Source: a virus
Lineage: Duplodnaviria; Caudoviricetes
Virus record (IMG/VR): IMGVR_UViG_3300018495_000012
Span: 2,556-66,555 of that record
Direction: 5' to 3' (one strand)
DNA: 64,000 bases
Shown here: piece by piece, positions 1,813 through 63,619 of the stretch
How positions within the stretch are numbered: the stretch's first letter is position 1
Layout: each line of letters starts with the position of its first letter
Made by a program: the position numbers and the translations under genes
Notes under the pieces: model-generated
Told to the model about the DNA's origin: nothing
Seen by the model: the letters and a program-made list of their open reading frames with translations, nothing else
Database searches by the model: none

Positions 1813-2869
1813 GGTGAGCGATATAAAAATAGTATACGAAAGTCACCTTTGTCATGCCGCCAAAAGAAAGAATGTTAAGTATATCGCTAGGATCCCTACG
1901 TCTAATGGTAAGTATCGATATTTCTATACCAAAGAAGAATACGACGCTTATATGAATGGTAAAAAACCTAAAGAGTCCAAAAAATCTAAGTGGAACTCCG
2001 TTTCTAAATTCTTTAAGAACATCGTGGCTAAAGCAACTAAGCTTCTTAAAAAATCTAAAAAAGAAATCGGAGACACTATAGAAAAAGGTCGTAAATTCAT
2101 CGATGAAGTAATCTTCGGAAAGAAAAAGGGCGGGCTGTCTAGCATAAAAGAGCGAGCCGTTAAATACATAGCTAAGGTAAAAATGTCAAACGGTAAGTAT
2201 AAGTACTTTTACGATGAGGGCGCATATGAGCGCTATTTGAAGCGTATGGAGTACCAAAAGAACGAACCTGAGTTTATGAAAAAAGTTCCTAAGATTTCTG
2301 AAGATACAGCTTATACAGCAGACGAAGAAATGGCTGAAATAAATGAGGACTATTCACCGTACAATAAAGGCACAAGTCAGAACTGCACTAATTGTACAGC
2401 GGCATATGAATTACGATGTCGAGGATATGATGTTTCAGCGGCAGATTATGAAAATTATGTCATGAATTACGATAACGCTAGTATATTCAGGTTTCCTCTT
2501 TATTATAAAGATGCTAAAACTATACGACTCGATGATACCGGTAAAGAGCATAAGAGCCCTTTAAACAATACGGTAGCGTATAAGCGATATGAGTACGATT
2601 CAAGAACTGTTACTGAAGCCATACTCAAACATAGCGGTAAGAATACAAGAGGCGATATATCTGTAATGTGGAAAGAAGCCTTGGCTGGTCATTCGATGGT
2701 GTACGAAGTTGACTCAAAAGGTAAAGTCACTATCCGAGATTGCCAGACTAACAAAAAATACAACGTAGAAGACATCGTTGATAGGGTAAACGCTATCAGT
2801 ATAACCCGAACCGATAACTTAGAGTTACGAAAGGGAATACTAGATGCCGTCGAGTCGAAAGGAGGATGA
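1799..2869 (+). CDS. Putative virion-cargo protein with C-terminal papain-fold (Tox-PL-like) toxin domain
   Basis: NCTNC (2381-2395), GHSM (His 2690) and IRDCQ (Asp 2738) give a Cys-His-Asp triad; duplicated KYIAxxxxSNGKYxYFY repeat at the N-terminus; start codon uncertain. Confidence 0.65.
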   Translation: MLLSEVSDIKIVYESHLCHAAKRKNVKYIARIPTSNGKYRYFYTKEEYDAYMNGKKPKESKKSKWNSVSKFFKNIVAKATKLLKKSKKEIGDTIEKGRKFIDEVIFGKKKGGLSSIKERAVKYIAKVKMSNGKYKYFYDEGAYERYLKRMEYQKNEPEFMKKVPKISEDTAYTADEEMAEINEDYSPYNKGTSQNCTNCTAAYELRCRGYDVSAADYENYVMNYDNASIFRFPLYYKDAKTIRLDDTGKEHKSPLNNTVAYKRYEYDSRTVTEAILKHSGKNTRGDISVMWKEALAGHSMVYEVDSKGKVTIRDCQTNKKYNVEDIVDRVNAISITRTDNLELRKGILDAVESKGG

Positions 2870-2875
2870 TAGTCT

Positions 2876-3130
2876 ATGAAATTAGAAGAAGCTGTAAGTA
2901 TTATAAAAGAAGAGTATCCAAATTACAACTTAATTAGCGTCGTAGACTACGATAATTATTTTGTATTCAACATTACACCTCCTGATTACGACGTTGAAAA
3001 ATACGGGGGATGGTTTGGCGGGTTGGTAGCAATCGACAAATTGTTTAAGTTATCTATGCATTTTATACCGTTAGAACACGATCCTGTAGCCTATGCAAAA
3101 GCGGTACAAAATAATACTAAATACTTTTAG
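2876..3130 (+). CDS. Putative immunity protein for the upstream toxin
   Basis: 84 aa, 6 nt after the toxin stop, RBS AAAGGAGG; small acidic/aromatic protein; call rests on position only. Confidence 0.45.
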   Translation: MKLEEAVSIIKEEYPNYNLISVVDYDNYFVFNITPPDYDVEKYGGWFGGLVAIDKLFKLSMHFIPLEHDPVAYAKAVQNNTKYF

Positions 3131-3151
3131 ACTGGTGGGTGAAAAATCAAA

Positions 3152-4408
3152 ATGGGTTTTAAAGATAGACTCATACATGCTTGGAATGCATTTTCCAATA
3201 ACAAGGATCCCACTGTGACGTTTGATGATGTACGCGGTAGCTATTATCGCAGACCCGACAGAGTAATACTTAGTCGAGGTAATGAGCGTTCTATCGTCAA
3301 CTCGATATGCAATCGAATTGCTTTAGACGCGTCTGCTATGGATATCCAACACGTACAGTTAGACGAAAATGGAAGATTCTTAGAGGCACTGCCTACCGGT
3401 TTAAATAACTGTTTAACCATGGAGGCAAATGTCGACCAAACAGCTCGTTCTTTTAGACACGATGCTATACTATCAATGCTCGATGAGGGCGTTGTCGCGC
3501 TTGTTCCCGTCGATACCACTAAGAACCCGATGTTGACTGAATCTTATGATATAGGATCAATGCGAACGGGTAAAATCTTAGAGTGGTTCCCACGACATGT
3601 GAAAGTTCAAATCTATAACGATAGAACTGGTGAAAAACAAGAAATCAAACTTCCTAAGAGTATGGTTGCTATTGTTGAAAACCCGTTCCGATCAGTCATG
3701 AATGAACCTAACTCTACAATGCAGCGACTTATAAGAAAACTTAATCTATTAGATATTCTCGATGAGAAAAATAGTTCTGGTAAATTGGATTTGATCATTC
3801 AGTTACCGTACATAGTTAAAACTGATACTCGTCGAGCACAAGCTGAGAAAAGACGACAGGATATCGAAGATCAATTGAAAGGCCCGTACGGTATCGCTTA
3901 TACCGATGGGACTGAACGTATTACGCAGTTGAATCGTCCGGTTGAGAACAATCTAATGGGTCAGATTGAATACCTAACGAGCATGCTTTATAGCCAGTTA
4001 GGAATCACACAGACAATATTGGATGGTACAGCTAACGAAGAGACAATGCTTAACTACTACGATCGTATCATCGAACCTATTGTCGCTGCACTCGTCGATG
4101 AGATGAAGCGTAAGTTTCTCAGCAAGACTGCTAGAACTCAGATGAAATCTATTATGTACTTTAGGAATCCGTTTAAACTCGTTCCTATTAAAGATTTGTC
4201 TGAAATGGCAGATAAGATGACTCGTAATGAGATCATGACCTCTAATGAGATTAGGCAAGTAATCGGTATGAAACCGTCAGATGATCCTAAGGCTGATCAA
4301 TTGATCAACAGTAACCTTAATCATCCTGAAGAATCCCGACCTGGTTCTAATTCGGGCGGTAGCTTCGGTGACACACCGATTAGTCAATTAACAGAAGAGG
4401 AGGAATAA
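3152..4408 (+). CDS. Portal protein
   Basis: 418 aa between terminase and protease-capsid genes; HK97-like portal features (LIIQLPY, YYDRIIEPI, MTSNEIRQVIG). Confidence 0.88.
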   Translation: MGFKDRLIHAWNAFSNNKDPTVTFDDVRGSYYRRPDRVILSRGNERSIVNSICNRIALDASAMDIQHVQLDENGRFLEALPTGLNNCLTMEANVDQTARSFRHDAILSMLDEGVVALVPVDTTKNPMLTESYDIGSMRTGKILEWFPRHVKVQIYNDRTGEKQEIKLPKSMVAIVENPFRSVMNEPNSTMQRLIRKLNLLDILDEKNSSGKLDLIIQLPYIVKTDTRRAQAEKRRQDIEDQLKGPYGIAYTDGTERITQLNRPVENNLMGQIEYLTSMLYSQLGITQTILDGTANEETMLNYYDRIIEPIVAALVDEMKRKFLSKTARTQMKSIMYFRNPFKLVPIKDLSEMADKMTRNEIMTSNEIRQVIGMKPSDDPKADQLINSNLNHPEESRPGSNSGGSFGDTPISQLTEEEE

Positions 4409-4414
4409 ATCAAA

Positions 4415-6271
4415 ATGGATAATTTCGATTATCACTTTAGCGGATATGCCACTCGTAACGATTTGCTTTGTGGCGATGGTCGAACCATAAGACAAGACGC
4501 ATTTAAAGATTGCGACGGTACAACTGTGCCCTTGATATGGAACCATCAGCATAATGATCAGGACGCTGTTCTCGGACACGCGTTGCTTGAAAATCGTAAT
4601 GACGGTGTATACGCATATTGCACATTTAACGATACCGAGCAGGGTAAACACGCTAAGAAATTAGTAATGCACGGTGACGTTAGAGCGCTTTCGATTTGTG
4701 CTAATAAACTTAAGCATATTGGAAGTGATGTTGTACACGGAGTGATTCGTGAACTCAGCCTTGTATTAGAAGGCGCTAATCCTGGGGCTTATATTGATTA
4801 TGTTATGGCTCATAGTGAAGATGGCGAGGATCTCGTGTATGCGAATTATGATGAATCAGCGTTGATGGTTGTATGTCACTCAGCGGATTCAAATAAAGAA
4901 ACAAACAAGGAGAAAGAAAACATGGCTGAAGAAACGAAGGCTCCTGAAACGGAGACAAAAGAAAAAACAATCGCCGACGTTTATAACGACATGTCCGAAG
5001 AACAGCAGCTCGTTGTTCAAGCAATGATCGGCATGGCTATCGAAGACGCAAAAGGCGAAAAAGACGACGAAGAAGTTGAACATTCAGAAGGAGGAACTGA
5101 AGAAATGAAACACAATGTATTCGATAACACAGAAGAAGTAAAATCCGGTAGCGTACTTACACACGCTGACCAGGTGGAAATCCTTAACAACGCTAGAAAG
5201 ACAAGCGTTGGAAGCTTGCAGGCAGCTATTAAGATGTTCGTAGAGGAAAATGAATCACTCGCTCACGGTCTTGACCTCGGTGATGCTGACACTCTCGACG
5301 AATTGCTTCCTGACCACAAGCTCCTTAATCCCGGCGCACCTGACCTTTACGGCAGACCTGACCAGAGCTGGGTTATGGGCGTAATTAACAAGGTTAAGAA
5401 GAGCCCTTATTCTCGCATCCGTACTCGTCATGCAGATGCAACAATCGCTGACTTCAAGGCTAAAGGCTACAAGAAGGGCGAAGAAAAGAAACTCGCTGAT
5501 AACATCAAGCTTATCGGTAGAAAGACAGAACCTACAACCATTTACAAGAAAGACGAGCTCAATCGTGACGATATCATCGACATTACAGATTTCGATGTAG
5601 TTAACTACACATGGGGTCTCATGAAGGAAGGTATGTATGAAACTATCGCACTTCAGACTCTCGTAGGTGACGGTCGTGAAGCTGGTGAAGCTGATGACAT
5701 CGACGAAACAAGCATCCGTCCTATCTGGAAAGATGATGAACTCTACACACATCATGTTGATGTAGATATCGAGGCTGCTAGACAGGAACTTCAGGGTTCT
5801 AATACAAGCGCTAACTTTGGCGAGAACTATGTATATGCTGAAGCTATCATCACAGCATCTCTCTATTCTCGTGAAAAGTTCAAGGGTAGCGGTACTCCCG
5901 ACCTTTACTGCACACCTCACCTTGTTAACGTAATGCTTCTCGCTCGTGACCTTAACGGTCGTAGAATTTACGACTCTAAGGCAGACCTTGCTAGAGCTCT
6001 TAACGTTAACTCTATCATCGAAATCGAGCGGCTCGAAGGTTTGACAAGAAAAGATAAGAACGAGAACACTAAGAAACTTCTCGGTATCTTTGTAAACCTT
6101 GCAGACTACCAGTACGGTTCTACAAAGGGTGGCGAACTCACAAAGTTCAGCGACTTCGATATCGACTTCAACAAGTACAAGTACCTTATGGAAACAAGAC
6201 TTTCCGGTGCACTTGTTAAGCTCGACTCTGCTATTGCTCTCGAAGAACCCGTAGAAGAAGCAGCAGGCTGA
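4415..6271 (+). CDS. Prohead protease - major capsid protein fusion
   Basis: N-terminal HK97-type protease motifs (FSGYATR, PLIWNHQH, ALSICA), acidic linker, C-terminal HK97-fold capsid region (KYLMETRLSGAL). Confidence 0.88.
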   Translation: MDNFDYHFSGYATRNDLLCGDGRTIRQDAFKDCDGTTVPLIWNHQHNDQDAVLGHALLENRNDGVYAYCTFNDTEQGKHAKKLVMHGDVRALSICANKLKHIGSDVVHGVIRELSLVLEGANPGAYIDYVMAHSEDGEDLVYANYDESALMVVCHSADSNKETNKEKENMAEETKAPETETKEKTIADVYNDMSEEQQLVVQAMIGMAIEDAKGEKDDEEVEHSEGGTEEMKHNVFDNTEEVKSGSVLTHADQVEILNNARKTSVGSLQAAIKMFVEENESLAHGLDLGDADTLDELLPDHKLLNPGAPDLYGRPDQSWVMGVINKVKKSPYSRIRTRHADATIADFKAKGYKKGEEKKLADNIKLIGRKTEPTTIYKKDELNRDDIIDITDFDVVNYTWGLMKEGMYETIALQTLVGDGREAGEADDIDETSIRPIWKDDELYTHHVDVDIEAARQELQGSNTSANFGENYVYAEAIITASLYSREKFKGSGTPDLYCTPHLVNVMLLARDLNGRRIYDSKADLARALNVNSIIEIERLEGLTRKDKNENTKKLLGIFVNLADYQYGSTKGGELTKFSDFDIDFNKYKYLMETRLSGALVKLDSAIALEEPVEEAAG

Positions 6272-6291
6272 TAAATCGAGGATAAATTAAA

Positions 6292-6615
6292 ATGGCAAAA
6301 TGGTTTGGTAAAGTCGGCTATGCGACTACAAAAGAAACGTCTCCAGGCGTATGGAAAGAAGTAATTACTGAGCGTGAGTACTTCGGTAAAGTCATTGACG
6401 ATTCTCGCAGGTATCAAGCCGGAGATAAAGTTAATGGGGATATAACCGTTTCGAGTAAGATTAGCATCGTCTCAGATCAGTTTGCCGATGAGAATTTTCA
6501 CTCGATTCGCTATGTGAAGTTTATGGGTGCTAACTGGGCAGTTATTAATGCTCAGCCTAAGCGCCCTAGGCTAATACTGACGTTAGGGGGTTTATACAAT
6601 GGCAAGCAGGCTTAA
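6292..6615 (+). CDS. Head closure / head-tail joining protein
   Basis: 107 aa directly after capsid; beta-rich SPP1 gp16-like pattern (RYVKFMGANWAV...RLILTL). Confidence 0.65.
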   Translation: MAKWFGKVGYATTKETSPGVWKEVITEREYFGKVIDDSRRYQAGDKVNGDITVSSKISIVSDQFADENFHSIRYVKFMGANWAVINAQPKRPRLILTLGGLYNGKQA

Positions 6616-6907
6616 ACTGCATGAGGAGTTATGTACTATCCTTGGATCTAGAAATGTGTATTTTCAACCCCCTGAGTCGGTAAAAATAAATTACCCCGGC
6701 ATTGTATATTCTATAGACGGAGCGAGCATAAAACGTGCTGACAACTCTAGTTATAGAATAACAAATAAATATTCGATTACCGTGATAGATTATGATCCTG
6801 ACAGTATCTTATATTCCAAAATATTAAGTCAATTTTCGTCATGTAGTCTCGATCGTACATATGTCGCAGATAATCTTAATCACTTCGTACTTACATTATA
6901 TTACTAA
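6599..6907 (+). CDS. Tail completion / terminator protein
   Basis: 102 aa before the major tail gene; VYFQPPES...YPGIVY. Confidence 0.65.
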   Translation: MASRLKLHEELCTILGSRNVYFQPPESVKINYPGIVYSIDGASIKRADNSSYRITNKYSITVIDYDPDSILYSKILSQFSSCSLDRTYVADNLNHFVLTLYY

Positions 6908-6921
6908 AGGAGGACTATAAT

Positions 6922-7581
6922 ATGTCTAAACTCGTATGGGATAAAATCGGCGAAAGATACTACGAAACAGGCGTCAAGAATGGCGTGTTGTATGTTTTCG
7001 ACGGTGAAAACAAAAAATATGGAAAAGGCGTAACTTGGAACGGTCTTACGGCTGTTACAGAATCACCTAGCGGCGCAGAAGCTTCTCCCCTTTATGCGGA
7101 TGACATCAAATACCTCAACCTCAGATCTGTTGAGGAATTCGGTGCTACAATCGAAGCTTTCACATATCCTGATGAATTCAAGGTGTGCAATGGTGAAGCA
7201 GAACTTGCGCCCGGAGTTGTTATCGGTCAGCAGAAGAGAAGCGCTTTCGGTTTCTGCTACAGAACAACACTTGGTAACGATATCGAAGAAGGCGACTACG
7301 GCTATAAGCTCCATATCATTTATGGTTGCACAGCGGCTCCTTCCGAGAAAGCTTACGCTACAATTAACGATAGCCCCGAAGCTATCACATTCAGCTGGGA
7401 AATCACAACTACTCCCGTTGAAGTAACTGGCGGTAAGCCCACTTCTTGCATCACTATTGACTCTACAAAGGTTGATGCTGAAAAGCTTGCTACACTCGAA
7501 GCTATGCTTTACGGTTCTGAATCCGAAGAAGCTAAACTTCCTACCCCCGACGAAATTGCAGCTGTTTTCGCAGAGGGTTGA
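6922..7581 (+). CDS. Major tail (tube) protein
   Basis: 219 aa; YADDIKY, GYKLHIIYGC, TFSWEITTTP typical of Bacillota siphovirus tube proteins. Confidence 0.88.
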   Translation: MSKLVWDKIGERYYETGVKNGVLYVFDGENKKYGKGVTWNGLTAVTESPSGAEASPLYADDIKYLNLRSVEEFGATIEAFTYPDEFKVCNGEAELAPGVVIGQQKRSAFGFCYRTTLGNDIEEGDYGYKLHIIYGCTAAPSEKAYATINDSPEAITFSWEITTTPVEVTGGKPTSCITIDSTKVDAEKLATLEAMLYGSESEEAKLPTPDEIAAVFAEG

Positions 7582-7614
7582 TCAATACCTACAGCTCAAT
7601 AAACTAAACCGATT

Positions 7615-8698: not shown

Positions 8699-9739
8699 AT
8701 GGCAAAAGTATTTTTATCAGCAGGGCACGGCGGTAGTGACCCCGGAGCTGTTGCTTACGGGTTACTCGAGAAGAACATCAACCTTAATACCATGTTGGCG
8801 TGTAATGAAGTTCTTGTGCGCCATGGAGTAGAGACAGTTCTTTCCCGTACAAAAGATGAGAATGATCCTACATATCAGGAATGTCGCGAAGCAAATGCCG
8901 CCGGCGTAGATTTGGCGGTATCTTTTCATGCTAACGCAGGTCGAGGTGACGGTTGGGAAGGATTCCACTTTAGTACAAATGCTGACGGTAAAAGACTTGT
9001 AATGATTGCCGAAAAGTACATTAAAGAACTTGGTCAGAACAGCCGAGGCGTTAAAGTCGGCGACCATCTGTACTTCATAAAGAATACAAACATGACCGCT
9101 GTATTGTTCGAATCTTTCTTCCTTGATAACGACAAGGATAACGATATCGGTGATACCGTTGCTGAACAGAAAGCTTTCGGCGTACAGTATGCTAAGGCGA
9201 TTCTTGAGTACTTCGGAATTGCTTATAAAGATAATACCGTAAAACCTACCGTAAAAACAATTAACGAACTCGCTAAGGAAGTAATAGCTGGTAAATGGGG
9301 TAACGGAGCTGATCGTAAAGCTCGTTTAACAGAAGCTGGTTATGATTATGAAGCTGTTCAGAATGAAGTTGATGAAATGTTGACTGGTAAAACGGCTGAC
9401 ATTAAACCGATCGAACCCAAACCGGTTGAACCTAAGCCCGAACCTAAGCCTAAAAAGACCATTGACGAACTCGCTAAAGAAGTTCTTGCGGGTAAATGGG
9501 GTAACGGTAGTGCTCGTAAGAAAGCGCTTACAGAAGCTGGATATAATTATGATGCGGTTCAGGATAAAGTTGATGAACTTCTTTCCGGAACAACAAAAGA
9601 AACTAAGAAATCAATAGACGAAATCGCCAGAGAAGTAATAGCTGGTAAATGGGGTAACGGAGCTGATCGTAGAGATCGTTTGACTAAAGCTGGCTACGAT
9701 TATTCTGCGGTTCAGAAGAGAGTAAACGAACTTATGTAA
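8699..9739 (+). CDS. N-acetylmuramoyl-L-alanine amidase (Amidase_3) with three CW_7 repeats (endolysin)
   Basis: LSAGHGGSDPGA, EKNINL, VSFHANA, AVLFES; three (T/S)IxELAxEVxAGKWGNG..R...LT.AGY repeats; Pro/Lys/Glu linker. Confidence 0.92.
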   Translation: MAKVFLSAGHGGSDPGAVAYGLLEKNINLNTMLACNEVLVRHGVETVLSRTKDENDPTYQECREANAAGVDLAVSFHANAGRGDGWEGFHFSTNADGKRLVMIAEKYIKELGQNSRGVKVGDHLYFIKNTNMTAVLFESFFLDNDKDNDIGDTVAEQKAFGVQYAKAILEYFGIAYKDNTVKPTVKTINELAKEVIAGKWGNGADRKARLTEAGYDYEAVQNEVDEMLTGKTADIKPIEPKPVEPKPEPKPKKTIDELAKEVLAGKWGNGSARKKALTEAGYNYDAVQDKVDELLSGTTKETKKSIDEIAREVIAGKWGNGADRRDRLTKAGYDYSAVQKRVNELM

Positions 9740-17922: not shown

Positions 17923-17924
17923 GT

Positions 17925-28697: not shown

Positions 28698-28901
28698 ATG
28701 AAAATGTCTAACAAAACTTATGACGTACTTAAGTGGGTTGCTATGTATTTGCTTCCTGCAATAGGTACGCTTTACTTCGCTCTTGCTGGTATTTGGGGTC
28801 TCCCTTACGGCGAACAGATCGTGGGAACCATCACTGCGGTTGATACTTTCATGGGAGTTCTTCTCGGTATTAGTACTGCGAAGTATAACAAGACGAAATG
28901 A
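28698..28901 (+). CDS. Holin (Dp-1 type)
   Basis: MSNKTYDVLKW...LPAIGTLYFAL..IWGLPYGEQIVGTITAVDTFMG; two TM segments. Confidence 0.88.
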   Translation: MKMSNKTYDVLKWVAMYLLPAIGTLYFALAGIWGLPYGEQIVGTITAVDTFMGVLLGISTAKYNKTK

Positions 28902-29215
28902 ATTACGTTATTCGTGACTGCGAACTCTATCACCATGGAGTAAAAGGTATGCGCTGGGGAATTCGAAAAGATATTTCAAAAAAAAAAAAACAGCGTAAAT
29001 TAAAAAAGTCTAAACCAAAAAATCGAGTGTTTACGGACATCAATTCCGCTAGATTGGCCCGAAGAATAGCAATCGGGCAGTCTTGGCTCGAATCGAACCG
29101 TCTGCATATGCAAACCCATCTGAATAATATGCATATATTCAACCAGCAAAACGAGATAAATAACATTATCAACAATCATCAAATGATGAACATGCATATG
29201 ATGGGAATGTTCTAA
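28898..29215 (+). CDS. Small protein with ELYHHGVKGMRWG leader (DUF7211-like) and Asn/His/Met/Gln-rich tail
   Basis: 105 aa; leader motif seen directly; A13 run at 28978-28990. Confidence 0.55.
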   Translation: MNYVIRDCELYHHGVKGMRWGIRKDISKKKKQRKLKKSKPKNRVFTDINSARLARRIAIGQSWLESNRLHMQTHLNNMHIFNQQNEINNIINNHQMMNMHMMGMF

Positions 29216-29810: not shown

Positions 29811-31301
29811 TTAAGCGAATTTCCAATGAATATGGATTACTTCGCCATCTATTGATATTTTCTCTATTAATTCTCGGATAAGGAATTTAACCTCGTCCAT
29901 ATCGCCTTCGTCAATAACGTCACATAAACTCAACGCAATCTCTACAGCGTCGTCTTTTGACATCTTTTCTTGCGTATTTTCTAAGTTTCTAATTTCATTA
30001 GCAATACCTTCTTTCTCAGCAGCTAACGGTTTAATCTTGTCCTGTACAGCTTCGAAATCTATACCGCCGATTGAATACAAATCCATCAATTTACTAACTT
30101 GTGATTCTATATTTTTAATACGTTTCGCAAGTACTTTTATTTTTGCAGAATTGTCGTCCTCGAACGTTTCTATTTCGAACTCGTCTGGATGCAATGCTAG
30201 TTTTCTGATTTCACCTAAAACTTTCTCTTCTAATTCAGCAGATTTCCAGTTCTTATTCGTACAACGTTGGTCTCTCGGTATATCTTTCCATTTACCGCTA
30301 TTAGCTGTACGTTTGTAACAGGTATAGTAACCCCACTCTTTAGCTCCAGATTTAGCTAATCTATGAAAATACTTATTGTCACAATGACCACAATTAACCA
30401 TTCCTGCGATAATCGAATTTATTCTAGGCTCTCTAGCTTCGACCTCTCGATCACGTTCCTCTAATATTTCTTGGGCTTTCTCGAAGGTCTCATCGTCTAT
30501 AATCGCCGTATGGATTCCTTCATACCATTCATCTTTATAAGACACCATACCGATATAATGTTTATTTTCTAGCATATCTCTTAAATGATGCTTACCTTCC
30601 CAAGTGACACCGTTTTTACTCGTATAGCCCTTTTTGTGCAATATATTAGCTATTTGTCGTTGAGGTAATCGCAGGTTAAATAGACGGAACATTTCTTTAA
30701 CTTGCATTGCCTCATATTCGTTAATTTCTAGTTCACCATTAACCATGTCGTATCCATACGGCGTACAAGGGCTGCCGCACCAGCGACCGCTTTTAGCTCT
30801 ACCAACTTTACCAACTTCCATACGTTCTTTAATTTGTTCTCTTTCAAGTTGAGCGAAGACGCTTAGAATCCCCACCATCGCTCTCCCGAAGGGCGTACTT
30901 GTATCTAAATTCTCGGTCATACTAATGAAGTCTACGCCATTTGGTAAGAATACGTCCTCAATAAGTGTAAGAGTGTCTTTTTGTGAACGTGATAAACGGT
31001 CTAGCTTATACACTAATACAGCATCAAATCGACCACCCTCGGCATCTTTGATTAGCTCCTGTAAACCTGGACGATTTGTATCCGCACCAGAGTAACCAGC
31101 ATCTGTGTATATTTTATGAACTTCCCAACCATGCGCTTCACAATATAGCTTCATACGGTCGACCTGCTCATTAATCGAATAACCGTCTCTAGCTTGTTCT
31201 AATGTTGACACCCTTGGATACAACGCTAGTCGTTTCTTAGCTGCGCTTCGTTTTTCCGCGAGTTCTCTTCTATTCATTTCTCTTCGTTGTCTAGTAGTCA
31301 T
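29811..31301 (-). CDS. int: Large serine recombinase (integrase)
   Basis: YPRVST catalytic motif, YTDAGYSGA..NRPGL, VYKLDRLSRS, Zn ribbon CGHC..YYTC..C, coiled coil. Confidence 0.95.
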   Translation of the reverse strand: MTTRQRREMNRRELAEKRSAAKKRLALYPRVSTLEQARDGYSINEQVDRMKLYCEAHGWEVHKIYTDAGYSGADTNRPGLQELIKDAEGGRFDAVLVYKLDRLSRSQKDTLTLIEDVFLPNGVDFISMTENLDTSTPFGRAMVGILSVFAQLEREQIKERMEVGKVGRAKSGRWCGSPCTPYGYDMVNGELEINEYEAMQVKEMFRLFNLRLPQRQIANILHKKGYTSKNGVTWEGKHHLRDMLENKHYIGMVSYKDEWYEGIHTAIIDDETFEKAQEILEERDREVEAREPRINSIIAGMVNCGHCDNKYFHRLAKSGAKEWGYYTCYKRTANSGKWKDIPRDQRCTNKNWKSAELEEKVLGEIRKLALHPDEFEIETFEDDNSAKIKVLAKRIKNIESQVSKLMDLYSIGGIDFEAVQDKIKPLAAEKEGIANEIRNLENTQEKMSKDDAVEIALSLCDVIDEGDMDEVKFLIRELIEKISIDGEVIHIHWKFA

Positions 31302-31303
31302 TT

Positions 31304-31696
31304 CTACCTATCCCCTTTGTCTATGATGTCCTTTGCCAGTTGTAGGGTATTCATTACCATTTGCTTTTCAGTTTCAGAGACAATACGTTTACCGCATACC
31401 AGACGAGGCTCCTCTAATACGAATACTATCAACTGATCAATAGCTTCGCATATATCGTGAGTCTTACCGTCCGTACGCTCCATATTCTCACTTTTACCGA
31501 TAAGCCATAACGGGTTTACATTCAAAATGGCAGCTATCGTCTCTACTACTGGCAGCTTTATATTTCTTATATCTCCGTTTTCATATCGGTGTATAGTGGC
31601 TTTGCTCAATCCCGTATAAGTAGCTATATCCACTACCGATATATTTAAGGCTTTGCGTCGTTGCTGTATTCGCTTGCCTATTTCCTCGTTTTTCAT
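31304..31696 (-). CDS. XRE-family repressor (CI-like)
   Basis: HTH ISVVDIATYTGLSKATIHRYENG; divergent from Cro-like gene; co-oriented with integrase. Confidence 0.88.
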   Translation of the reverse strand: MKNEEIGKRIQQRRKALNISVVDIATYTGLSKATIHRYENGDIRNIKLPVVETIAAILNVNPLWLIGKSENMERTDGKTHDICEAIDQLIVFVLEEPRLVCGKRIVSETEKQMVMNTLQLAKDIIDKGDR

Positions 31697-57750: not shown

Positions 57751-58410
57751 ATGAGTAATAATAACAAACAAAAGAGTTGCTGGTGGTGCCTAACTATGAT
57801 AATCGTATACGCAATTATTATATTTGTATTTACGATATTCATACACGTCAAAGTGCTCGCTATTGAGTCCGCTACATATGAACCGTCGGTAACACCGTGT
57901 GAGAGTCCGATTGTGGATACTCCTATGATTAATATTGAAGAAGAGATAGTCATCGCTGAGACAGAACCTGTCGTGCCTGCTGTGAGGTATTTTGACGTTC
58001 CGTTGAGTGAAGACTTGCAGGATCATATATTTGCAGTATGTGAGAGTTATGGTGTGGATCCTGTAGTAGTCATGGCGGTGATTAAGAAAGAATCAATGTT
58101 TAAAGCTGGTGAGATTGGCGATAGCGGAAACTCATTCGGCTTGATGCAGATTCAACCTAGATGGCATGGGGCACCCTATTCCACTAGAATGGAGAGACTT
58201 GGAGTTACTGACTTGTTAGATCCGTACCAGAACGTCATTGTTGGCATTGATATTTTGGCTGAGTTATTCAGCAAAGGCGGATCTTTGGAGTGGGTTTTGA
58301 TGTCGTACAATGGAGGTTATGCGCATGCAAACAATCATATTGCTAATGGCACTGTTAGTGATTATGTTGCTATTGTTACGAATTATATGAACACAATTGA
58401 AAGGAAATGA
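57751..58410 (+). CDS. Membrane-anchored lytic transglycosylase (SLT domain)
   Basis: N-terminal TM; AVIKKES catalytic Glu, GLMQI, SYNGG. Confidence 0.85.
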   Translation: MSNNNKQKSCWWCLTMIIVYAIIIFVFTIFIHVKVLAIESATYEPSVTPCESPIVDTPMINIEEEIVIAETEPVVPAVRYFDVPLSEDLQDHIFAVCESYGVDPVVVMAVIKKESMFKAGEIGDSGNSFGLMQIQPRWHGAPYSTRMERLGVTDLLDPYQNVIVGIDILAELFSKGGSLEWVLMSYNGGYAHANNHIANGTVSDYVAIVTNYMNTIERK

Positions 58411-58622
58411 TATTTATGGATTACAAGATGAGAGAATTAAAAAAGAACGGTGAGGGTTATGACGATCCTACCGCATATGAAGCTATTAAGAAAATAGACC
58501 CTACTGCTAGAAAACGTTATAGATTGATAGGGTGTATTTTGAGAATTTGTGAGCTTGCCGGGTACGAGGTTGTCGGGCGAATAGAGCTTAGAGATGTGAA
58601 GACTGGTAAGGTTTATAAGTGA
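58407..58622 (+). CDS. Hypothetical protein, 71 aa
   Basis: KKNGEGYDDPTAYEAI; ORF track. Confidence 0.65.
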   Translation: MIFMDYKMRELKKNGEGYDDPTAYEAIKKIDPTARKRYRLIGCILRICELAGYEVVGRIELRDVKTGKVYK

Positions 58623-58624
58623 TT

Positions 58625-58980
58625 TTTGTGGTCACTTTTATGTGTCCTGCCCACTTTTATATTTGACCACGAATCGTTGAAAAATTTACTGGTCAAAAAA
58701 AGTGGGTTTTTGCCCGGTTTTGTGAAACAAAAATGGCCAGCAAATTGGTCAAAAACTTAAACAAAAGTTTAAGAAACTTAAACAATTGTTTAAGAAACTT
58801 AAACAAAAGTTTAAGAAATTGAGGTATTTTTAGCTCTCTGGCCAAATGGTCACTTTTTTTTCTTAAAAGTTTTAAAAAATAAAAACTTAAACAATTGTTT
58901 AAGAAACTTAAACAAAAGTTTAAGAATTAAAAATATAAAAGTTTTAGCAAAAAAATCTGGCCATTTGACCAAAGTGTATT
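58625..58980. repeat. AT-rich palindromic repeat array, candidate replication origin
   Basis: Five 18-bp palindromes CTTAAAC-(AAAA/AATT)-GTTTAAG at 58756, 58777, 58798, 58886, 58907 (21-bp period), flanked by inverted AAATGGCCAG/CTGGCCATTT and TTGGTCAAA/TTTGACCAA. Confidence 0.75.
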
Positions 58981-58995
58981 TTTGAGAGGAGAATT

Positions 58996-59418
58996 ATGCA
59001 ATACAATAATAAATTTGATTCAATATTAGAACGAATGTCTAAGATATTTCCGTCGATCCATGCAAAGGTTGTGAGCTGGTATCCAAGCGATAAAAGCGAA
59101 ATCGTTGTGATTCTTGATGACGGTGTTAAGATGGCATACGAAAGTTTTGATGATACGATACGTACTATCAAGTCTGAATACATATCTTCTGAGGTTATGG
59201 ATGAGGTGTCTTACAGAAAAAAGTTTTCGGACGCTCTCCGATATCAGATGAGGATGTCAGGAATAATGCAATACGAACTTTCCGAACAGACCGGAATATC
59301 TGTACAGACACTTAGCAAGTATTTGAGAGGTACGGCTACCCCAAGCGCATACAATATATTCAAGATTGCTAATGCTCTCGGATGTCCTATTTCAAAACTT
59401 ATAAGCTACGATATTTGA
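58996..59418 (+). CDS. Protein with C-terminal XRE HTH
   Basis: MQYELSEQTGISVQTLSKYLRG..PSAYNIFKIANALG. Confidence 0.8.
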   Translation: MQYNNKFDSILERMSKIFPSIHAKVVSWYPSDKSEIVVILDDGVKMAYESFDDTIRTIKSEYISSEVMDEVSYRKKFSDALRYQMRMSGIMQYELSEQTGISVQTLSKYLRGTATPSAYNIFKIANALGCPISKLISYDI

Positions 59419-59429
59419 AAGGAGAATGT

Positions 59430-59591
59430 AATATGGGATGGGTAATTAGTTTAATGCTTTTGATAGGCGGTGCTTTTACCAAGCAGACCTATACAGGTGA
59501 CGCAATACTTATTGCGAGTGCTTTGTTCGCAATTGCTGGTTCTTTAGGCGGAGCTGCAAATATATTAGTAAGTAAGATTAATAAACATTAA
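59430..59591 (+). CDS. Small two-TM protein
   Basis: MGWVISLMLLIGG..ILIASALFAIAG; RBS AAAGGAG; terminator 59603-59640. Confidence 0.6.
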   Translation, partial: NMGWVISLMLLIGGAFTKQTYTGDAILIASALFAIAGSLGGAANILVSKINKH

Positions 59592-59656
59592 TAAGTATTG
59601 TTAGAAGGGTCCGTGTAAATCACATGGGCTCTTCATTTTTATCCGTTTTCGGCAGA

Positions 59657-59681
59657 CGCGAAAAATACATGCCCTTTTATG
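59657..59681 (+). promoter_or_regulatory. Motif copy 19 (heads the nuclease-RNA polymerase operon)
   Basis: CGCG aaaaat ACA tgccctt TTATG. Confidence 0.75.
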
Positions 59682-59759
59682 AGAGAAAGAATAAAATGCG
59701 GTTTTTTATAAACATGCACTTTCTCTTTTATCTTTTAGAAGTGAAAGGAGAGAGTCACT

Positions 59760-60068
59760 ATGGCAAGAAGTTCAAGATTGGAAAGTGGTTTCCAAGATAG
59801 ACTTGTTGGCGAACTAAAAGAGATGTTTCCTGGCTGTATGGTTTTCAAGATGGACCAGTTCCAAGGTATCCCTGATTTATTGATATTGCATGAGGATAAA
59901 TGGGCGTCACTTGAGAATAAGAAAAGTAAGGATGCTAAGAAGCAACCGAACCAGGAGTATTATGTCGACAAAATGAACAAGATGTCATTCTCACGATTCG
60001 TTTGTCCCGAAAACAAGCAAGAGGTTCTAGAAGACCTAAGCAAGCACATGAGACAAAAGGAGAGATAA
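59760..60068 (+). CDS. VRR-NUC-like PD-(D/E)XK nuclease (possible Holliday junction resolvase)
   Basis: LESGFQ, GIPDLL, LENK, QPNQEYY. Confidence 0.75.
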   Translation: MARSSRLESGFQDRLVGELKEMFPGCMVFKMDQFQGIPDLLILHEDKWASLENKKSKDAKKQPNQEYYVDKMNKMSFSRFVCPENKQEVLEDLSKHMRQKER

Positions 60069-60069
60069 T

Positions 60070-60642
60070 ATGATATTGGAATTCAACAGACATAAAAATC
60101 TCGAAGGACTACATGCCCCATTCAGCGCAAGCCAATCTAGCTGGCTTCGATATGATGATGACAAAGTACTCGAAGTGTACAGTAATAAGAAAGCTGCTGA
60201 AATGGGAACCAAGTTACACCAATGGGCAAAAGATACTATTGATTTGAAAATTAAGCAACCAAAGTCGAATAAGACTCTGTATGCGTACGTAAACGACGCT
60301 ATAGGTTTTAAGATGTCGACAGAGGTTGTTTTATTTTATTCTCCAAGATTCTTCGGCACTGCCGATGCTATTTCGTTTAAGACTATCAACGGTAGAGGAT
60401 TCTTGAGAATACACGATTTAAAAACCGGAACTACAAAAGTAAAGATGGAACAGCTTATGGTATACGCCGCTCTGTTTTGTCTTGAGTATAAGATTAAACC
60501 GGGCGATATCGACTTTGAACTGAGAATCTATCAGAACAATGAGATTATCTATCATAATCCTACAGCGGAAGACATTCTTCCTATTATGGATAAGATTAAA
60601 CATTTAGACGAACTACTGGAAAGATACGAAGAGGAGGCTTGA
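60070..60642 (+). CDS. PD-(D/E)XK exonuclease-like protein
   Basis: GTKLH, FGTADAI, IHDLKTG, QLMVYA. Confidence 0.75.
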   Translation: MILEFNRHKNLEGLHAPFSASQSSWLRYDDDKVLEVYSNKKAAEMGTKLHQWAKDTIDLKIKQPKSNKTLYAYVNDAIGFKMSTEVVLFYSPRFFGTADAISFKTINGRGFLRIHDLKTGTTKVKMEQLMVYAALFCLEYKIKPGDIDFELRIYQNNEIIYHNPTAEDILPIMDKIKHLDELLERYEEEA

Positions 60643-60646
60643 TATT

Positions 60647-63619
60647 ATGAACCCTGTGGTTGAAGAAATGTGCGCCATCCTTGATGGTGATGAAGATATG
60701 TTAATGCATATCGGCGTAAAAAGACGTTCAGGGCGTTATCCCTGGGGTTCGGGTGAAGATCCGTATCAACGCCAGAATCTCGACTTTTTAGGTAGAGTTA
60801 AAGAGATGAAGGATAAGGGAATGCGCGAACCTGAAATCGCAAAAGCCCTTGAAATAGTTAATGATTTAGGCGAACCATCAACTGGTCGTCTCAGAGCTCA
60901 GGAAAGATGGGCTAAAGATGAAGTTAAGCTTATGAATATTCAGACAGCTAAACGTTACCGCGATAAAGAAAGAATGGGTCCTACTGAAATTGGTAGAGCG
61001 ATGGGTGTTCCTGAATCTACAGTTCGTGGCTGGTTGAAAGAAGAAGCTGAACTGAAAGTTAGAGAAGCTAGACAGACTGTTGACTTCTTAAGAGACCAAG
61101 TTAATCAGAAGAAAATGGTTGACGTAGGTACAGATGTTGAGCGAGAACTTAACATATCAAAAGAAAGACTCGTTGAAGCTTTAAACGTTCTTGAGAATGA
61201 AGGCTACCATATTTACAAAGGTGGTATTCCTCAGGCGACTAACCCTGGTAAACAGACTAACCAGAAAGTGTTAGCTACTCCTGAAACAGAGTATAAAGAA
61301 ATCTATGATTTCGATAAAGTTAAATCAGTAACTGATTACATATCCAGAGATGGTGGGGAAACTTATGAAAAGAAGTTCCATTATCCTGAAAGTTTGGATT
61401 CTAAACGCCTTATGATTCGTTATAAAGAAGATGGTGGTATTGATAAAGACGGTGTTATTGAGCTTCGTAGAGGTGTCGAAGATTTGTCGCTTGGTGAGTC
61501 TAGATATTCTCAGGTTCGTATAATGGTAAACGGCACGCACTATCTTAAAGGTATGGCCGTGTATTCCGATGATATGCCTGACGGCGTCGATGTAATATTC
61601 AATACTAACAAAACTAAAGATACTCCGGCGTTAGGTCCTAAAAATAATACAGTACTTAAGATTATTAAGAATGACCCTGACAATCCGTTCGGTTCTGCAA
61701 TTAAAGATGCTGAACAAGGCGGTCAATACTGGTATACAGATAAGAATGGTAAGAAGAAGCTTGGCCTCATCAATAAGCGTGCAGATGAAGGTGACTGGGA
61801 AGAATGGAAGGATGCACTTCCATCGCAGTTCCTCGGCAAACAGAACATTACAATGATAAAGAAGCAGCTTGGTATAGCTAAGGCTGATAAGATGGCAGAG
61901 TATGAAGAGATATGTTCACTCACTAATCCTACGATTAAGAAACATATGTTGGAAGACTTTGCTAATAACTGTGACGCTGCTGCTGTACACTTAAAGGCTG
62001 CCGCATTACCTGGTCAGAAGTACCATGTGATCATGCCTATCAACACACTTAAAGATACAGAGTGCTATGCTCCGAACTATAAAGATGGAACTAAGCTTGC
62101 TCTTGTTCGTTATCCTCATGGAGGCACATTCGAAATACCGATAGTAACAGTTAACAATAAGCATGCTGCTGGTAGAAAACTTTTAGGTACTGATGCAACT
62201 GATGCGATAGGTATCAATAGTAAAGTAGCTGAAAGATTATCCGGTGCTGACTTTGACGGCGACACTGTTATGGCTATACCTACTCATGATAGTAAAGGTA
62301 GAGTTAAGATAACCAACAGAGATCAGTTACCTGGATTGATTGGCTTCGATCCTAAGATGGCATATCCTGAGCGTCCTGGTATGAAGTATATGAAGAACAC
62401 TCAGACCGAGATGGGAATAATCTCAAACCTTATTACTGATATGACATTGATAGGCGCTAACGATGCTGACTTAGCTAAAGCGGTTAGACATAGCATGGTA
62501 GTAATCGATGCGGAAAAGCATAATCTTGACTATAAGAAGAGTGAGTTGGAGAACAATATTAAAGCATTAAAAGAAAAGTATCAGATAAAAGTGGATGAGA
62601 ACGGTGAGATAAAAACCGGAGGTGCATCTACAATATTATCTAGAGCGAAGGGCGAAATGTCCATTCCTAAGAGACAAGGTACTCCTAAGATCAATATTAA
62701 AGGTAGTAAGGACTATGATCCTAGTAGACCTGAGGGATCTCTTCTGTATAAAACAGCCGATGATCTTTGGTATCCAGTACGCAAGTACGATAAGAATACC
62801 GGTGAAGTAACTCTTAGGACTGATAATGGTAAAAAAATAGTATACAACATGAACGATAAAGACGCAGTCGACATGTACAACCCCGTCAAGAGAGTTAACG
62901 ATAAGACCGGAGAGATCTACTTCACAAATAAAACTGGCGATATCACATACCGTAAGGACTATAAGAAGGACCAGAGTACCAACATGGCAGAGACAGATGA
63001 TGCATACTCCCTGGTATCACAGATGAGACACCCCAAGGAGCTCGTGTATGCTGAGTACGCTAACGATATGAAAGCCCTTGCTAATAAGGCTAGAAAAGAG
63101 ATAGTTAATACTAAGAAGATAGCCTACTCTGCATCTGCTAAAGATACATACCGTGAAGAAGTACGTTCTCTTAATGACAAGCTTGATAATGCTAGACTGA
63201 ATGCTCCTAGGGAAAGAGCTGCTCAGCGTATAGCTAACTCTGTAATTAAATCTAAGACTGAATCTAATCCTAATATGTCAAAAGAAGATTTAAAGAAAGA
63301 GAGAAATAGAGCATTAAAAGTAGCTCGTCAAGAAGTCGGCGCTATAGCTAGACGTAAGAGAAACATAGATATTACTGATAGAGAATGGGAAGCTATACAA
63401 GCTGGTGCTGTCAGTGAAAACATACTTAAGAGTATACTTAACAACACTGATGCTGACAAACTAAGACAAAGAGCAACGCCTCGCGCTACTACTTCGCTTA
63501 GTCCTGGACAGATAAGTAGAATCAAAGCTATGAGCGCATCATATACACAAGCTCAGATCGCTGAGAAGCTTAACTTGTCACCTTCCGCAGTATCGAAAGC
63601 ATTGAAAGGAGCGAATTAA
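60647..63619 (+). CDS. Single-chain double-psi-beta-barrel RNA polymerase (YonO-like)
   Basis: LSGADFDGD (DFDGD 62249-62263), LVRYP (62108), several HTH-like segments; no partner beta/beta-prime gene in the window. Confidence 0.8.
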   Translation: MNPVVEEMCAILDGDEDMLMHIGVKRRSGRYPWGSGEDPYQRQNLDFLGRVKEMKDKGMREPEIAKALEIVNDLGEPSTGRLRAQERWAKDEVKLMNIQTAKRYRDKERMGPTEIGRAMGVPESTVRGWLKEEAELKVREARQTVDFLRDQVNQKKMVDVGTDVERELNISKERLVEALNVLENEGYHIYKGGIPQATNPGKQTNQKVLATPETEYKEIYDFDKVKSVTDYISRDGGETYEKKFHYPESLDSKRLMIRYKEDGGIDKDGVIELRRGVEDLSLGESRYSQVRIMVNGTHYLKGMAVYSDDMPDGVDVIFNTNKTKDTPALGPKNNTVLKIIKNDPDNPFGSAIKDAEQGGQYWYTDKNGKKKLGLINKRADEGDWEEWKDALPSQFLGKQNITMIKKQLGIAKADKMAEYEEICSLTNPTIKKHMLEDFANNCDAAAVHLKAAALPGQKYHVIMPINTLKDTECYAPNYKDGTKLALVRYPHGGTFEIPIVTVNNKHAAGRKLLGTDATDAIGINSKVAERLSGADFDGDTVMAIPTHDSKGRVKITNRDQLPGLIGFDPKMAYPERPGMKYMKNTQTEMGIISNLITDMTLIGANDADLAKAVRHSMVVIDAEKHNLDYKKSELENNIKALKEKYQIKVDENGEIKTGGASTILSRAKGEMSIPKRQGTPKINIKGSKDYDPSRPEGSLLYKTADDLWYPVRKYDKNTGEVTLRTDNGKKIVYNMNDKDAVDMYNPVKRVNDKTGEIYFTNKTGDITYRKDYKKDQSTNMAETDDAYSLVSQMRHPKELVYAEYANDMKALANKARKEIVNTKKIAYSASAKDTYREEVRSLNDKLDNARLNAPRERAAQRIANSVIKSKTESNPNMSKEDLKKERNRALKVARQEVGAIARRKRNIDITDREWEAIQAGAVSENILKSILNNTDADKLRQRATPRATTSLSPGQISRIKAMSASYTQAQIAEKLNLSPSAVSKALKGAN

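What the first reader, a model, noticed from the sequence alone, without database searches (positions are those of the whole stretch)
1841..60720. Shared hydrophobic-x-His motif links the capsid linker to the N-termini of RNA polymerase, toxin and a small protein
Seen: the linker between protease and capsid carries six similar sites: MAH-S (4811), VCH-S (4877), VEH-S (5081), MKH-N (5111), LTH-A (5162), LAH-G (5264). The same pattern lies near the N-terminus of three otherwise unrelated proteins: toxin LCH-A (1853), 105-aa protein LYH-HGVKG (28931) and RNA polymerase LMH-IGVK (60707). The latter two also share the following GVK. Established: prohead proteases cleave scaffolds and internal head proteins at a shared short sequence, as in T4 and phiKZ. 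Inference: this is the protease site/capsid-targeting leader, so polymerase and toxin are packaged, matured and injected.
Basis: partly seen in the sequence, partly recalled or inferred. Interest (0 to 1): 0.85.

Follow-up and report, generated by a model that had tools for sequence, protein, structure and literature searches.

The report
His-site tag on phage head cargo
This gut phage studs the spacer between its head protease and capsid protein with a conserved "hydrophobic-x-His" site, and the same site opens a short leader on a small basic protein, a toxin-like enzyme and the phage's own RNA polymerase, so these are probably loaded into the head and trimmed there, though no cleavage has been measured.

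Summary
In this window alone, the three-residue motif at the three N-termini is no better than chance: 16 of 82 genes have one in the first 25 residues. Comparison with relatives shows it is real.

- **Linker sites:** in 65 relatives of the protease-capsid fusion, 85% of linker His have L/M/I at P3, against 11-22% elsewhere. P1' is small. All six sites lie in predicted disordered or boundary segments.
- **Mature capsid:** the first residue of mature HK97 capsid aligns next to H284|G285.
- **p105** is a canonical Pfam DUF7211 protein.
- **RNA polymerase:** its invariant N-terminus (L-x-H-Y-G...W-G) is a diverged DUF7211 (hhalign P 8.5e-6).
- **Toxin family:** it keeps hydrophobic-x-His in 61 of 61 members, and four members carry canonical DUF7211 instead.
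- **Lactococcus phage 1706:** the DUF7211 protein (orf7) and the polymerase (orf75) are both annotated "structural protein".

Best reading: a site for the S78-type prohead protease that also opens a cargo leader. This resembles the T4 and phiKZ capsid-targeting leaders but uses His and a different tag. Cleavage, packaging in this phage and injection remain untested. This scan has already noted the same system on at least 12 other genomes. I found no paper on DUF7211.

The parts
4415..6271 (+). Protease-linker-major capsid fusion gene (618 aa). Protease domain is residues 1-132, linker 133-284, HK97-fold capsid domain 285-618.
   Evidence: Pfam Peptidase_S78 21.9 bits against a cut-off of 21. 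PHROG 3270 E 1e-195. The AF2 model has an ordered 1-131 and 290-615. VIA-align gives Z 16.7 to HK97 1ohg.
4805..4816 (+). Site 1, M-A-H133|S, at the end of the protease domain.
   Evidence: His 100% conserved, P3 is M/I/L, P1' is G/S/A. It is the first disordered residue of the model.
4871..4882 (+). Site 2, V-C-H155|S.
   Evidence: His 98% conserved. In relatives the consensus is (E)-L-Y-H|S/A-D-E, the same E-L-Y-H that opens DUF7211.
5075..5086 (+). Site 3, V-E-H223|S, inside an insertion present in about a quarter of relatives.
   Evidence: Where the insertion exists, P3 is V/I/L and P1' is S/N.
5105..5116 (+). Site 4, M-K-H233|N-V-F.
   Evidence: His 83% conserved. M-K-H-N-V-F is nearly invariant.
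5156..5167 (+). Site 5, L-T-H250|A.
   Evidence: His invariant, P3 is L in 62 of 65, P1' is A/S.
5258..5269 (+). Site 6, L-A-H284|G285, the proposed maturation cut that releases the mature capsid protein.
   Evidence: His invariant, P3 is L in 63 of 65. Low-confidence loop 283-287 in the model. Residue 104 of mature HK97 aligns to model residue 287, GTA capsid to 286, T5-like capsids to 287-289.
1799..2869 (+). Toxin-like protein (356 aa). It has an N-terminal leader with L17-C-H19|A (1847-1858), two K-Y-I-A-K...Y-R-Y-F-Y modules and a C-terminal papain-fold Gln_amidase domain.
   Evidence: Pfam PF15644 25.7 bits against a cut-off of 24.1. All 61 homologues with intact N-termini keep hydrophobic-x-His before the module, and 4 carry canonical DUF7211 instead.
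28898..29215 (+). p105, a small basic protein with a canonical DUF7211 leader (residues 7-25, L10-Y-H12).
   Evidence: Pfam PF23847 36.5 bits against a cut-off of 27. My own leader HMM gives E 2.9e-13. It has 20 K+R and 6 D+E.
60647..63619 (+). YonO/crAss-type single-chain RNA polymerase candidate (990 aa). The leader L19-M-H21-I-G-V-K...W-G-S-G is at 60701-60787. D-F-D-G-D is at residues 535-539.
   Evidence: PHROG 4291 E 0. DFDGD located. L-x-H-Y-G...S-G-R-Y-P-W-G is invariant in 80 relatives plus 1706 and ReqiPoco6. hhalign against DUF7211 leaders gives P 8.5e-6.
1..48 (+). The last codons of a 309-aa DUF7211 gene that lies just upstream of the terminase and mostly outside the window (genome 1675-2601).
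   Evidence: the genome search on the window's own record gave 28.8 bits, over the cut-off. The N-terminus reads G-E-L-Y-H-H-G-V-L-G-Q-K-W-G.
3152..4408 (+). Portal protein, with L7-I-H9|A-W-N-A near its N-terminus (3170-3181).
   Evidence: Pfam Phage_portal. R-L-[KQ]-H-[AG]-W-N-A-F occurs in most relatives, but the His is replaced by N, R, K or S in a minority.

Best explanation
Hydrophobic-x-His is the recognition and cleavage site of the phage's own S78-type prohead protease. This protease is made as the N-terminal domain of every capsid subunit. Inside the procapsid it cuts after His at five or six places. These cuts detach the protease, shred the scaffold-like linker, and free the mature capsid protein at H284|G285.

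The same site opens an N-terminal leader carried by otherwise unrelated proteins:
- canonical DUF7211 (E-L-Y-H-[YH]-G-h-K-G-M-K-W-G) on p105 and on a 309-aa protein encoded just upstream of the terminase;
- a diverged DUF7211 on the RNA polymerase;
- a variant leader on the toxin-like protein.

The leader marks these proteins for incorporation into the procapsid. There they are probably trimmed at the His, and later they leave with the DNA.

Shown here: the motif, its conservation, its co-occurrence with this capsid type, and where it sits in the predicted structure. Taken from GenBank annotation of a relative: the polymerase and a DUF7211 protein are present in virions. Inferred: cleavage after His, trimming of the cargo, and injection.
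For: - **Linker sites.** 339 of 398 linker His (85%) have L/M/I at P3 in 65 relatives. The figure is 22% in the protease domain, 11% in the capsid domain and 21% in other proteins. P1' is A/S/N/G. The sites are also kept in phage 1706, Streptomyces phage Bing and Gordonia phage BluerMoon.
- **Structure.** All six sites lie in low-confidence, disordered or boundary segments of the AF2 model. Mature, already processed HK97-type capsid proteins start aligning at model residues 285-290.
- **Site format.** A hydrophobic P3, any P2, a fixed P1 and a small P1' is the format of T4 gp21 (L/I-x-E) and herpesvirus assemblin (V/L-x-A|S). These are enzymes of the same fold class (from my own knowledge).
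- **Leader distribution.** 61 of 62 relatives with at least 4.5 kb of upstream sequence carry 1-5 DUF7211 genes in the head module. The density of [LMI]-x-H is 4.2-4.5 times higher in the first 30 residues of head-module genes than further in.
- **Independent sample.** I searched bacterial genomes with the DUF7211 leader. Of the loci with near-full flanks, 29 of 31 hold this capsid fusion within 10 kb, and the other two hold the portal homologue. In those fusions 88% of linker His have L/M/I at P3.
- **Each cargo family.** The toxin family keeps the site in 61 of 61 members. The polymerase family keeps L-x-H-Y-G invariant, and hhalign against DUF7211 leaders gives P 8.5e-6.
- **Virion evidence in a relative.** Phage 1706 orf7 (two DUF7211 motifs, 41.8 bits) and orf75 (the polymerase) are annotated "structural protein".
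- **Charge.** All 111 DUF7211 ORFs are net basic, as internal head proteins are.
- **Promoter-like motif.** A 19-copy + strand motif covers the early region and heads the polymerase's own operon. That fits a polymerase that arrives with the virion.
Against: - No cleavage, virion proteome or N-terminal data exist for this phage. I could not read the 1706 or ReqiPepy6 proteomics papers, so "structural protein" rests on GenBank labels. The ReqiPoco6 label is itself by similarity to 1706.
- P1' is bulky in p105 (H) and the polymerase (I here, Y in relatives). Such residues were never seen among the roughly 300 linker sites counted.
- In both leader types the His sits at a fixed distance from the following conserved module, so it could be a structural part of that module.
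- Neither Pfam's DUF7211 model nor my own leader HMM detects this window's polymerase (E 8.7) or toxin. The toxin leader against DUF7211 gives only P 0.0017.
- The phage is temperate (serine integrase and repressor), so after induction it must express the polymerase without any virion-borne copy.
- The relatives are not independent samples, and the genome search kept only the 80 best matches.
Confidence: 0.55

Rival explanations
1. The linker sites are protease sites, but the L-x-H that opens DUF7211 and the polymerase leader is not cut. It is part of a small binding module, for the portal, the capsid interior, the protease groove or DNA. That module loads or anchors the protein, and its likeness to the cleavage site is partial or reflects uncleaved docking.
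For: - P1' is bulky (Y, H, I) in DUF7211 and the polymerase but small at all linker sites.
- L, H, G, G, W and G are invariant at fixed spacing.
- The pre-His peptide can be as short as 5-6 residues.
- The module is predicted as coil with pLDDT 52-78, which fits a peptide that folds on a partner.
Against: - In the toxin family the site is kept, with small and varied P1' (A, S, G, K, W), even where the rest of DUF7211 is replaced by another module.
- Linker site 2 in relatives reads E-L-Y-H, the same four residues that open DUF7211.
Confidence: 0.25
2. The tagged proteins are packaged, but they act inside the head, for example in DNA condensation, as internal scaffold or in pressure control. 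They are not injected effectors. The toxin-like and polymerase members work mainly in the producing cell.
For: - All 111 DUF7211 ORFs are strongly basic.
- p105 has no recognisable enzymatic domain.
- The phage is temperate and must be able to express its polymerase from the prophage.
Against: - A papain-fold toxin domain followed by a co-conserved small downstream gene looks like an effector-immunity pair.
- The polymerase's own operon carries the same motif as the early genes.
Confidence: 0.1
3. The conserved linker His are not cleavage sites. They serve another role, such as metal or pH sensing or repeated scaffold-shell contacts, and the N-terminal matches are a low-information coincidence.
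For: - The bare motif is common: 16 of 82 genes in this window have one in the first 25 residues.
- M-K-H-N-V-F and the H250 helix cap are conserved beyond the tripeptide.
Against: - Five or six sites share P3, P1 and P1' in otherwise variable, disordered sequence.
- The last site coincides with the mature N-terminus of processed homologous capsids.
- There is a 4-fold N-terminal enrichment in head-module genes.
- The leader co-occurs tightly with this capsid type.
Confidence: 0.07

Closest known systems
T4 capsid-targeting sequence on internal proteins IPI-III and Alt, removed by prohead protease gp21 (L/I-x-E site); also phiKZ inner-body proteins cut by gp175 (S/A/G-x-E)
   Same: - Unrelated, mostly basic proteins share a short N-terminal leader.
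- The leader contains the same P3-x-P1 site that occurs repeatedly in the scaffold and capsid precursor.
- An enzyme-like protein and a polymerase are among the candidates.
   Different: - P1 is His, not Glu.
- The host phage is a siphophage whose protease is fused to the scaffold and capsid protein.
- The conserved part of the leader (DUF7211) lies after the presumed cut and would remain on the protein.
- The pre-site peptide can be only 5-6 residues.
- No experiment has tested it.
Pfam PF23847 (DUF7211)
   Same: p105 and the 309-aa protein upstream of the terminase match over the curated cut-off.
   Different: - Pfam gives no function, and I found no paper that mentions it.
- The polymerase and the toxin of this window do not reach the model. 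They are related only through profile-profile comparison or through their homologues.
HK97 gp4/gp5 maturation (S78 prohead protease removing the delta domain)
   Same: - The protease family is S78 and the capsid has the HK97 fold.
- A helical delta-like segment precedes the capsid domain.
- The mature N-terminus aligns with HK97 Ser104.
   Different: - Protease, delta-like linker and capsid protein form one polypeptide.
- Several internal sites end in His, whereas HK97 cuts after Lys103 (from my own knowledge).
Virion RNA polymerases of N4 and crAss-like phages; YonO of SPbeta
   Same: - It is a single-chain polymerase candidate with a DFDGD motif.
- The homologue in phage 1706 is annotated as a virion structural protein.
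   Different: - The phage is a temperate siphophage.
- The protein carries built-in HTH modules.
- Its N-terminus is a DUF7211-like leader.
- Activity, packaging and injection are untested.
MuF/SPP1 gp7-fused polymerase-independent phage head toxins of polymorphic toxin systems
   Same: A toxin domain (Tox-PL1/Gln_amidase) is encoded in the head module next to the portal, with a small downstream candidate immunity gene.
   Different: There is no MuF domain. The N-terminal carrier is the His-site leader plus K-Y-I-A-K...Y-R-Y-F-Y modules.

Membership tests
Pfam DUF7211 (PF23847) | Match to the 25-position model over the 27-bit cut-off: p105 | tested here: met
   36.5 bits, residues 7-25; 38.3 bits in the genome search.
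Pfam DUF7211 (PF23847) | Match to the model: RNA polymerase N-terminus | tested here: not met
   No Pfam hit at E up to 10. My own leader HMM gives E 8.7. The family-level profile comparison is positive (hhalign P 8.5e-6, 28 columns, a 4-residue insertion), so it is a diverged relative, not a member by the model.
Pfam DUF7211 (PF23847) | Match to the model: toxin N-terminus | tested here: not met
   No hit. hhalign of the toxin-leader family against DUF7211 gives P 0.0017, with a reversed control at 0.56. Four homologues carry true DUF7211 at the same place.
Peptidase S78 (HK97 gp4-type prohead protease) | Match to PF04586 over its cut-off, with conserved candidate catalytic His and Ser | tested here: met
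   21.9 bits against a cut-off of 21, only just over. H44, S93, H108 and S115 are invariant in 53 sequences. I did not search the protease fold on its own.
HK97-fold major capsid protein | Fold match covering the whole domain | tested here: met
   Z 16.7 to 1ohg_A (268 residues aligned, rmsd 5.2) and Z 17.6 to the GTA capsid.
Capsid-targeting leader processed by the prohead protease (T4/phiKZ type) | The same short leader on unrelated proteins, containing the site that also occurs in the scaffold and capsid precursor | tested here: met
Capsid-targeting leader processed by the prohead protease (T4/phiKZ type) | Tagged proteins are present in virions | tested here: inconclusive
   The only evidence is the GenBank label "structural protein" on 1706 orf7 and orf75. 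There are no data for this phage, and the source papers are not held.
Capsid-targeting leader processed by the prohead protease (T4/phiKZ type) | The leader is cut by the protease, and the leader is sufficient for packaging | not testable with these tools
   This needs mass spectrometry, in vitro cleavage and reporter fusions.
Two-barrel single-chain RNA polymerase (YonO/crAss gp66 type) | Catalytic DxDGD loop and family-level homology | tested here: inconclusive
   DFDGD at residues 535-539. PHROG 4291 E 0. No Pfam RdRP hit. A preprint reports HHpred 95.7% to PF05183 for the family (10.1101/842583). Activity is untested.
Gln_amidase / papain-fold toxin 1 (PF15644) | Match over the cut-off | tested here: met
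   25.7 bits against a cut-off of 24.1, residues 194-318.

The most novel reading that the evidence does not exclude
The capsid-fused protease itself receives the cargo. Any protein that opens with the ~20-residue His-site leader docks as a substrate on the several hundred protease copies lining the procapsid, is captured, trimmed and later ejected. That would be a portable, swappable protein-delivery tag shared by a siphophage lineage spanning Firmicutes and Actinobacteria. The lineage would use it to deliver its own YonO-type RNA polymerase, toxins and basic DNA-binding proteins into the host.
Probability: 0.3. Interest if true: 0.85.

Novelty: new variant of a known kind. Interest (0 to 1): 0.66.

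Why it matters
- **A function for a DUF.** It would give a function to a Pfam domain of unknown function that is common in gut Clostridia phages and in hundreds of cultured actinobacteriophages.
- **A new specificity.** It would define a new cleavage specificity, after His, for HK97-type prohead proteases.
- **A protein-delivery tag.** It would show that ordinary temperate siphophages load a changeable set of proteins, their own RNA polymerase included, into the head by means of a short tag. Such a tag could be used to package chosen proteins.
- **An old puzzle.** It would explain why phage 1706 was annotated with "structural" proteins encoded in its replication module.
- **Easy to test.** Cultured relatives exist: phage 1706, Streptomyces cluster BI phages, and Gordonia and Arthrobacter isolates.

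Tried and rejected
- **Close relatives.** Megablast of the head module against 50,697 phage records found none.
- **Pfam on the polymerase and toxin N-termini alone.** No DUF7211 hit.
- **My own DUF7211 leader HMM on all 576 six-frame ORFs of the window.** Only p105 was significant. The polymerase ranked 6th at E 8.7 and the toxin was absent.
- **Sequence search of the fusion protein against PDB chains.** Nothing relevant, so I folded it instead.
- **Papers.** "DUF7211" gave 0 papers and "GMKWG" none that was relevant. Searches for YonO plus virion, 1706 plus polymerase, and the capsid-protease fusion found no statement on cleavage sites or on a packaged polymerase in this lineage. The ReqiPepy6 proteomics paper (PMC3020559) is not held. 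I did not try to fetch the 1706 virion paper.
- **tblastn with a 41-residue leader against phage records.** Too insensitive, with 8 records hit; those I could place are in the same lineage.
- **A second leader module (K-Y-I-A-K...Y-R-Y-F-Y) in the 80 capsid loci.** Only two copies.
- **AF2 of the 46-residue leader.** It gave coil of middling confidence, which does not decide between a linear motif and a small domain.
- **Rejected: the 19-copy motif as a host sigma-A promoter.** Its two boxes are 7 bases apart, not 17.

Full report
**What the window is.** It covers bases 2556-66555 of a 66.5-kb IMG/VR virus record with direct terminal repeats. The gene order is:
- large terminase (49-1812);
- a toxin-like gene (1799-2869) and an 84-aa gene;
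- portal (3152-4408);
- a 618-aa protease-capsid fusion (4415-6271);
- tail genes with a 2605-aa tape measure;
- p105 (28898-29215);
- a serine integrase and a repressor on the minus strand;
- a long early and replication region;
- a 990-aa polymerase-like gene (60647-63619).

Homologues of the fusion protein and of the polymerase occur in nearly the same set of about 250 phage records: Arthrobacter, Gordonia, Streptomyces, Lactococcus 1706-like, Faecalibacterium FP_oengus and human gut contigs. This is the lineage described in preprint 10.1101/842583. That paper names the polymerase-like protein as its signature and says nothing about packaging.

**The observation.** Within this window the tripeptide alone is weak evidence. 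[LMVI]-x-H occurs 87 times against about 79 expected, and 16 of 82 genes have one in the first 25 residues. H-x-G-V-K, however, occurs only in p105 and the polymerase among real ORFs.

**The linker.** I fetched 80 related loci and aligned 64 non-identical fusion proteins that are 41-65% identical.
- H133, H250 and H284 are invariant. H155 is 98% conserved and H233 83%. H223 lies in an insertion that a quarter of the sequences share.
- P3 is L/M/I almost without exception, and P1' is G/S/A/N. P2' is mostly D/E at four of the six sites. The remaining sequence and the linker length (139-226 residues) vary.
- 85% of linker His have L/M/I at P3, against 22% in the protease domain, 11% in the capsid domain and 21% in other proteins.
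- The pattern holds in phage 1706 (six of six linker His) and, with one exception each (two in Bing if T and E at P1' are counted), in Streptomyces phage Bing and Gordonia phage BluerMoon.
- An AF2 model built on this alignment has an ordered protease domain (1-131) and capsid domain (290-615). All six sites fall in low-confidence, disordered or boundary segments.
- In a fold search, mature HK97 (chain starts at residue 104) aligns from model residue 287. The GTA capsid aligns from 286, and T5-type capsids, whose delta domains are removed, from 287-289.

So H284|G285 sits where processed capsid proteins begin. From my own knowledge, the format of hydrophobic P3, any P2, fixed P1 and small P1' is that of T4 gp21 and herpesvirus assemblin.

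**The N-terminal sites.**
- p105 is a canonical DUF7211 protein (36.5 bits).
- In the 6 kb upstream of the capsid gene, 61 of 62 relatives carry one to five genes that open with (D/E/N)-E-L-Y-H-[YH]-G-h-[KL]-G-[MQ]-[KR]-W-G. Their C-terminal parts are unrelated.
- This genome has one more such gene, 309 aa, just upstream of the terminase and outside the window.
- All 111 such ORFs are net basic, against 27% of other ORFs.
- Across 80 relatives plus 1706 and ReqiPoco6, the polymerase N-terminus keeps L-x-H-Y-G-h-x-R-x-S-G-R-Y-P-W-G-S-G, and some read E-L-Y-H-Y-G. Its profile aligns to the DUF7211 profile with P 8.5e-6 and a 4-residue insertion. The single sequence from this window is not detected.
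- In the toxin family, all 61 homologues with intact N-termini have hydrophobic-x-His, usually E-L-Y-H-A, before the K-Y-I-A-K...Y-R-Y-F-Y module. Four have canonical DUF7211 instead, and one is a hybrid. The profile link between this leader and DUF7211 is weak (P 0.0017).
- Linker site 2 in relatives also reads E-L-Y-H.

**Co-occurrence.** I scanned one genome per bacterial species with the DUF7211 alignment and got 75 loci, mostly in Clostridia. Of 31 loci with near-full 10-kb flanks, 29 hold the capsid fusion. The other two hold the portal homologue. In these fusions 88% of linker His have L/M/I at P3. Only the best 80 matches were kept, so this sample leans towards close relatives.

**Virion evidence.** In the GenBank record of phage 1706, orf75 (the polymerase homologue) and orf7 are labelled "structural protein". 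Orf7 lies upstream of the terminase and has two DUF7211 motifs plus further L-x-H-S sites. ReqiPoco6 gp106 carries the same label, but by similarity to 1706. I could not read the underlying papers.

**Against cleavage of the leaders.**
- P1' is H, I or Y in p105 and the polymerase, which is never seen in the linker.
- The His sits at a fixed distance from the module that follows it.
- The pre-His peptide can be only 5-6 residues, so it cannot be the targeting signal by itself.
- The leader alone folds as coil of middling confidence.

**Verdict.** The linker sites are very likely protease sites (about 0.75-0.8). Packaging of DUF7211 proteins and the polymerase is likely (about 0.65). Trimming of the cargo at the His is open (about 0.45), and so is packaging of the toxin (about 0.5).

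The mechanism resembles the T4 and phiKZ capsid-targeting leaders. It differs in using His, a different tag, and a protease fused to the capsid protein.

Earlier notes of this scan describe the same system on at least 12 other genomes. I re-derived each point here and did not rely on them.

Noticed in passing
window 29221-59682, + strand: There are 19 copies of CGCG-N7-CA-N7-TTATRR, against 1.1 expected by chance and 0 of 100 shuffles reaching 19. All are on the + strand and all lie in the non-structural half. The last one (59657) heads the operon that contains the polymerase gene. The spacing does not fit a sigma-A promoter, so it is a candidate promoter for the phage polymerase.
   Followed up: partly
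window 3170-3181 (portal residues 7-10): The portal N-terminus carries L-I-H|A-W-N-A. Most relatives read R-L-[KQ]-H-[AG]-W-N-A-F, but the His is N, R, K or S in a minority. It may be a further protease site, as in lambda gpB, or simply a conserved helix start.
   Followed up: partly
window 2876-3130: The 84-aa ORF that starts 6 bases after the toxin gene has no Pfam or PHROG match. It is co-conserved with the toxin in locus L003 (E 4e-41), so it is a candidate immunity protein.
   Followed up: partly
L085 2501-3889 (phage 1706 orf7); L054 1338-2234: Some tagged proteins carry two DUF7211 motifs (1706 orf7 at residues 32 and 181) plus further L-x-H-S sites. They look like polyproteins that would be cut into several cargo pieces.
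   Followed up: no
L166 7466-7984 (Bing gene 13); L167 7330-7941 (BluerMoon gene 21): The gene between portal and capsid in these actinophages opens with L-x-H-x-Y-D-P-V-K-x-R-E-Y-Y-L. This is a third kind of module behind the same His site.
   Followed up: no
window 60647-60700 and relatives L086-L165: The polymerase has a second conserved element, M-N-P-[IV]-A-E-E-[IM], before the His site, followed by a spacer of variable length. Its role is unknown.
   Followed up: no
window 58732-58947: A 21-base unit (AAACTTAAACAAAAGTTTAAG-like) is repeated in two clusters 109 bases apart, upstream of the nuclease-polymerase operon. This is iteron-like and may mark an origin or an operator array.
   Followed up: no
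window 29811-31696, minus strand; 8699-9739: A serine integrase and a repressor on the minus strand mark the phage as temperate. The endolysin gene sits inside the tail module rather than at the end of the late operon.
   Followed up: no
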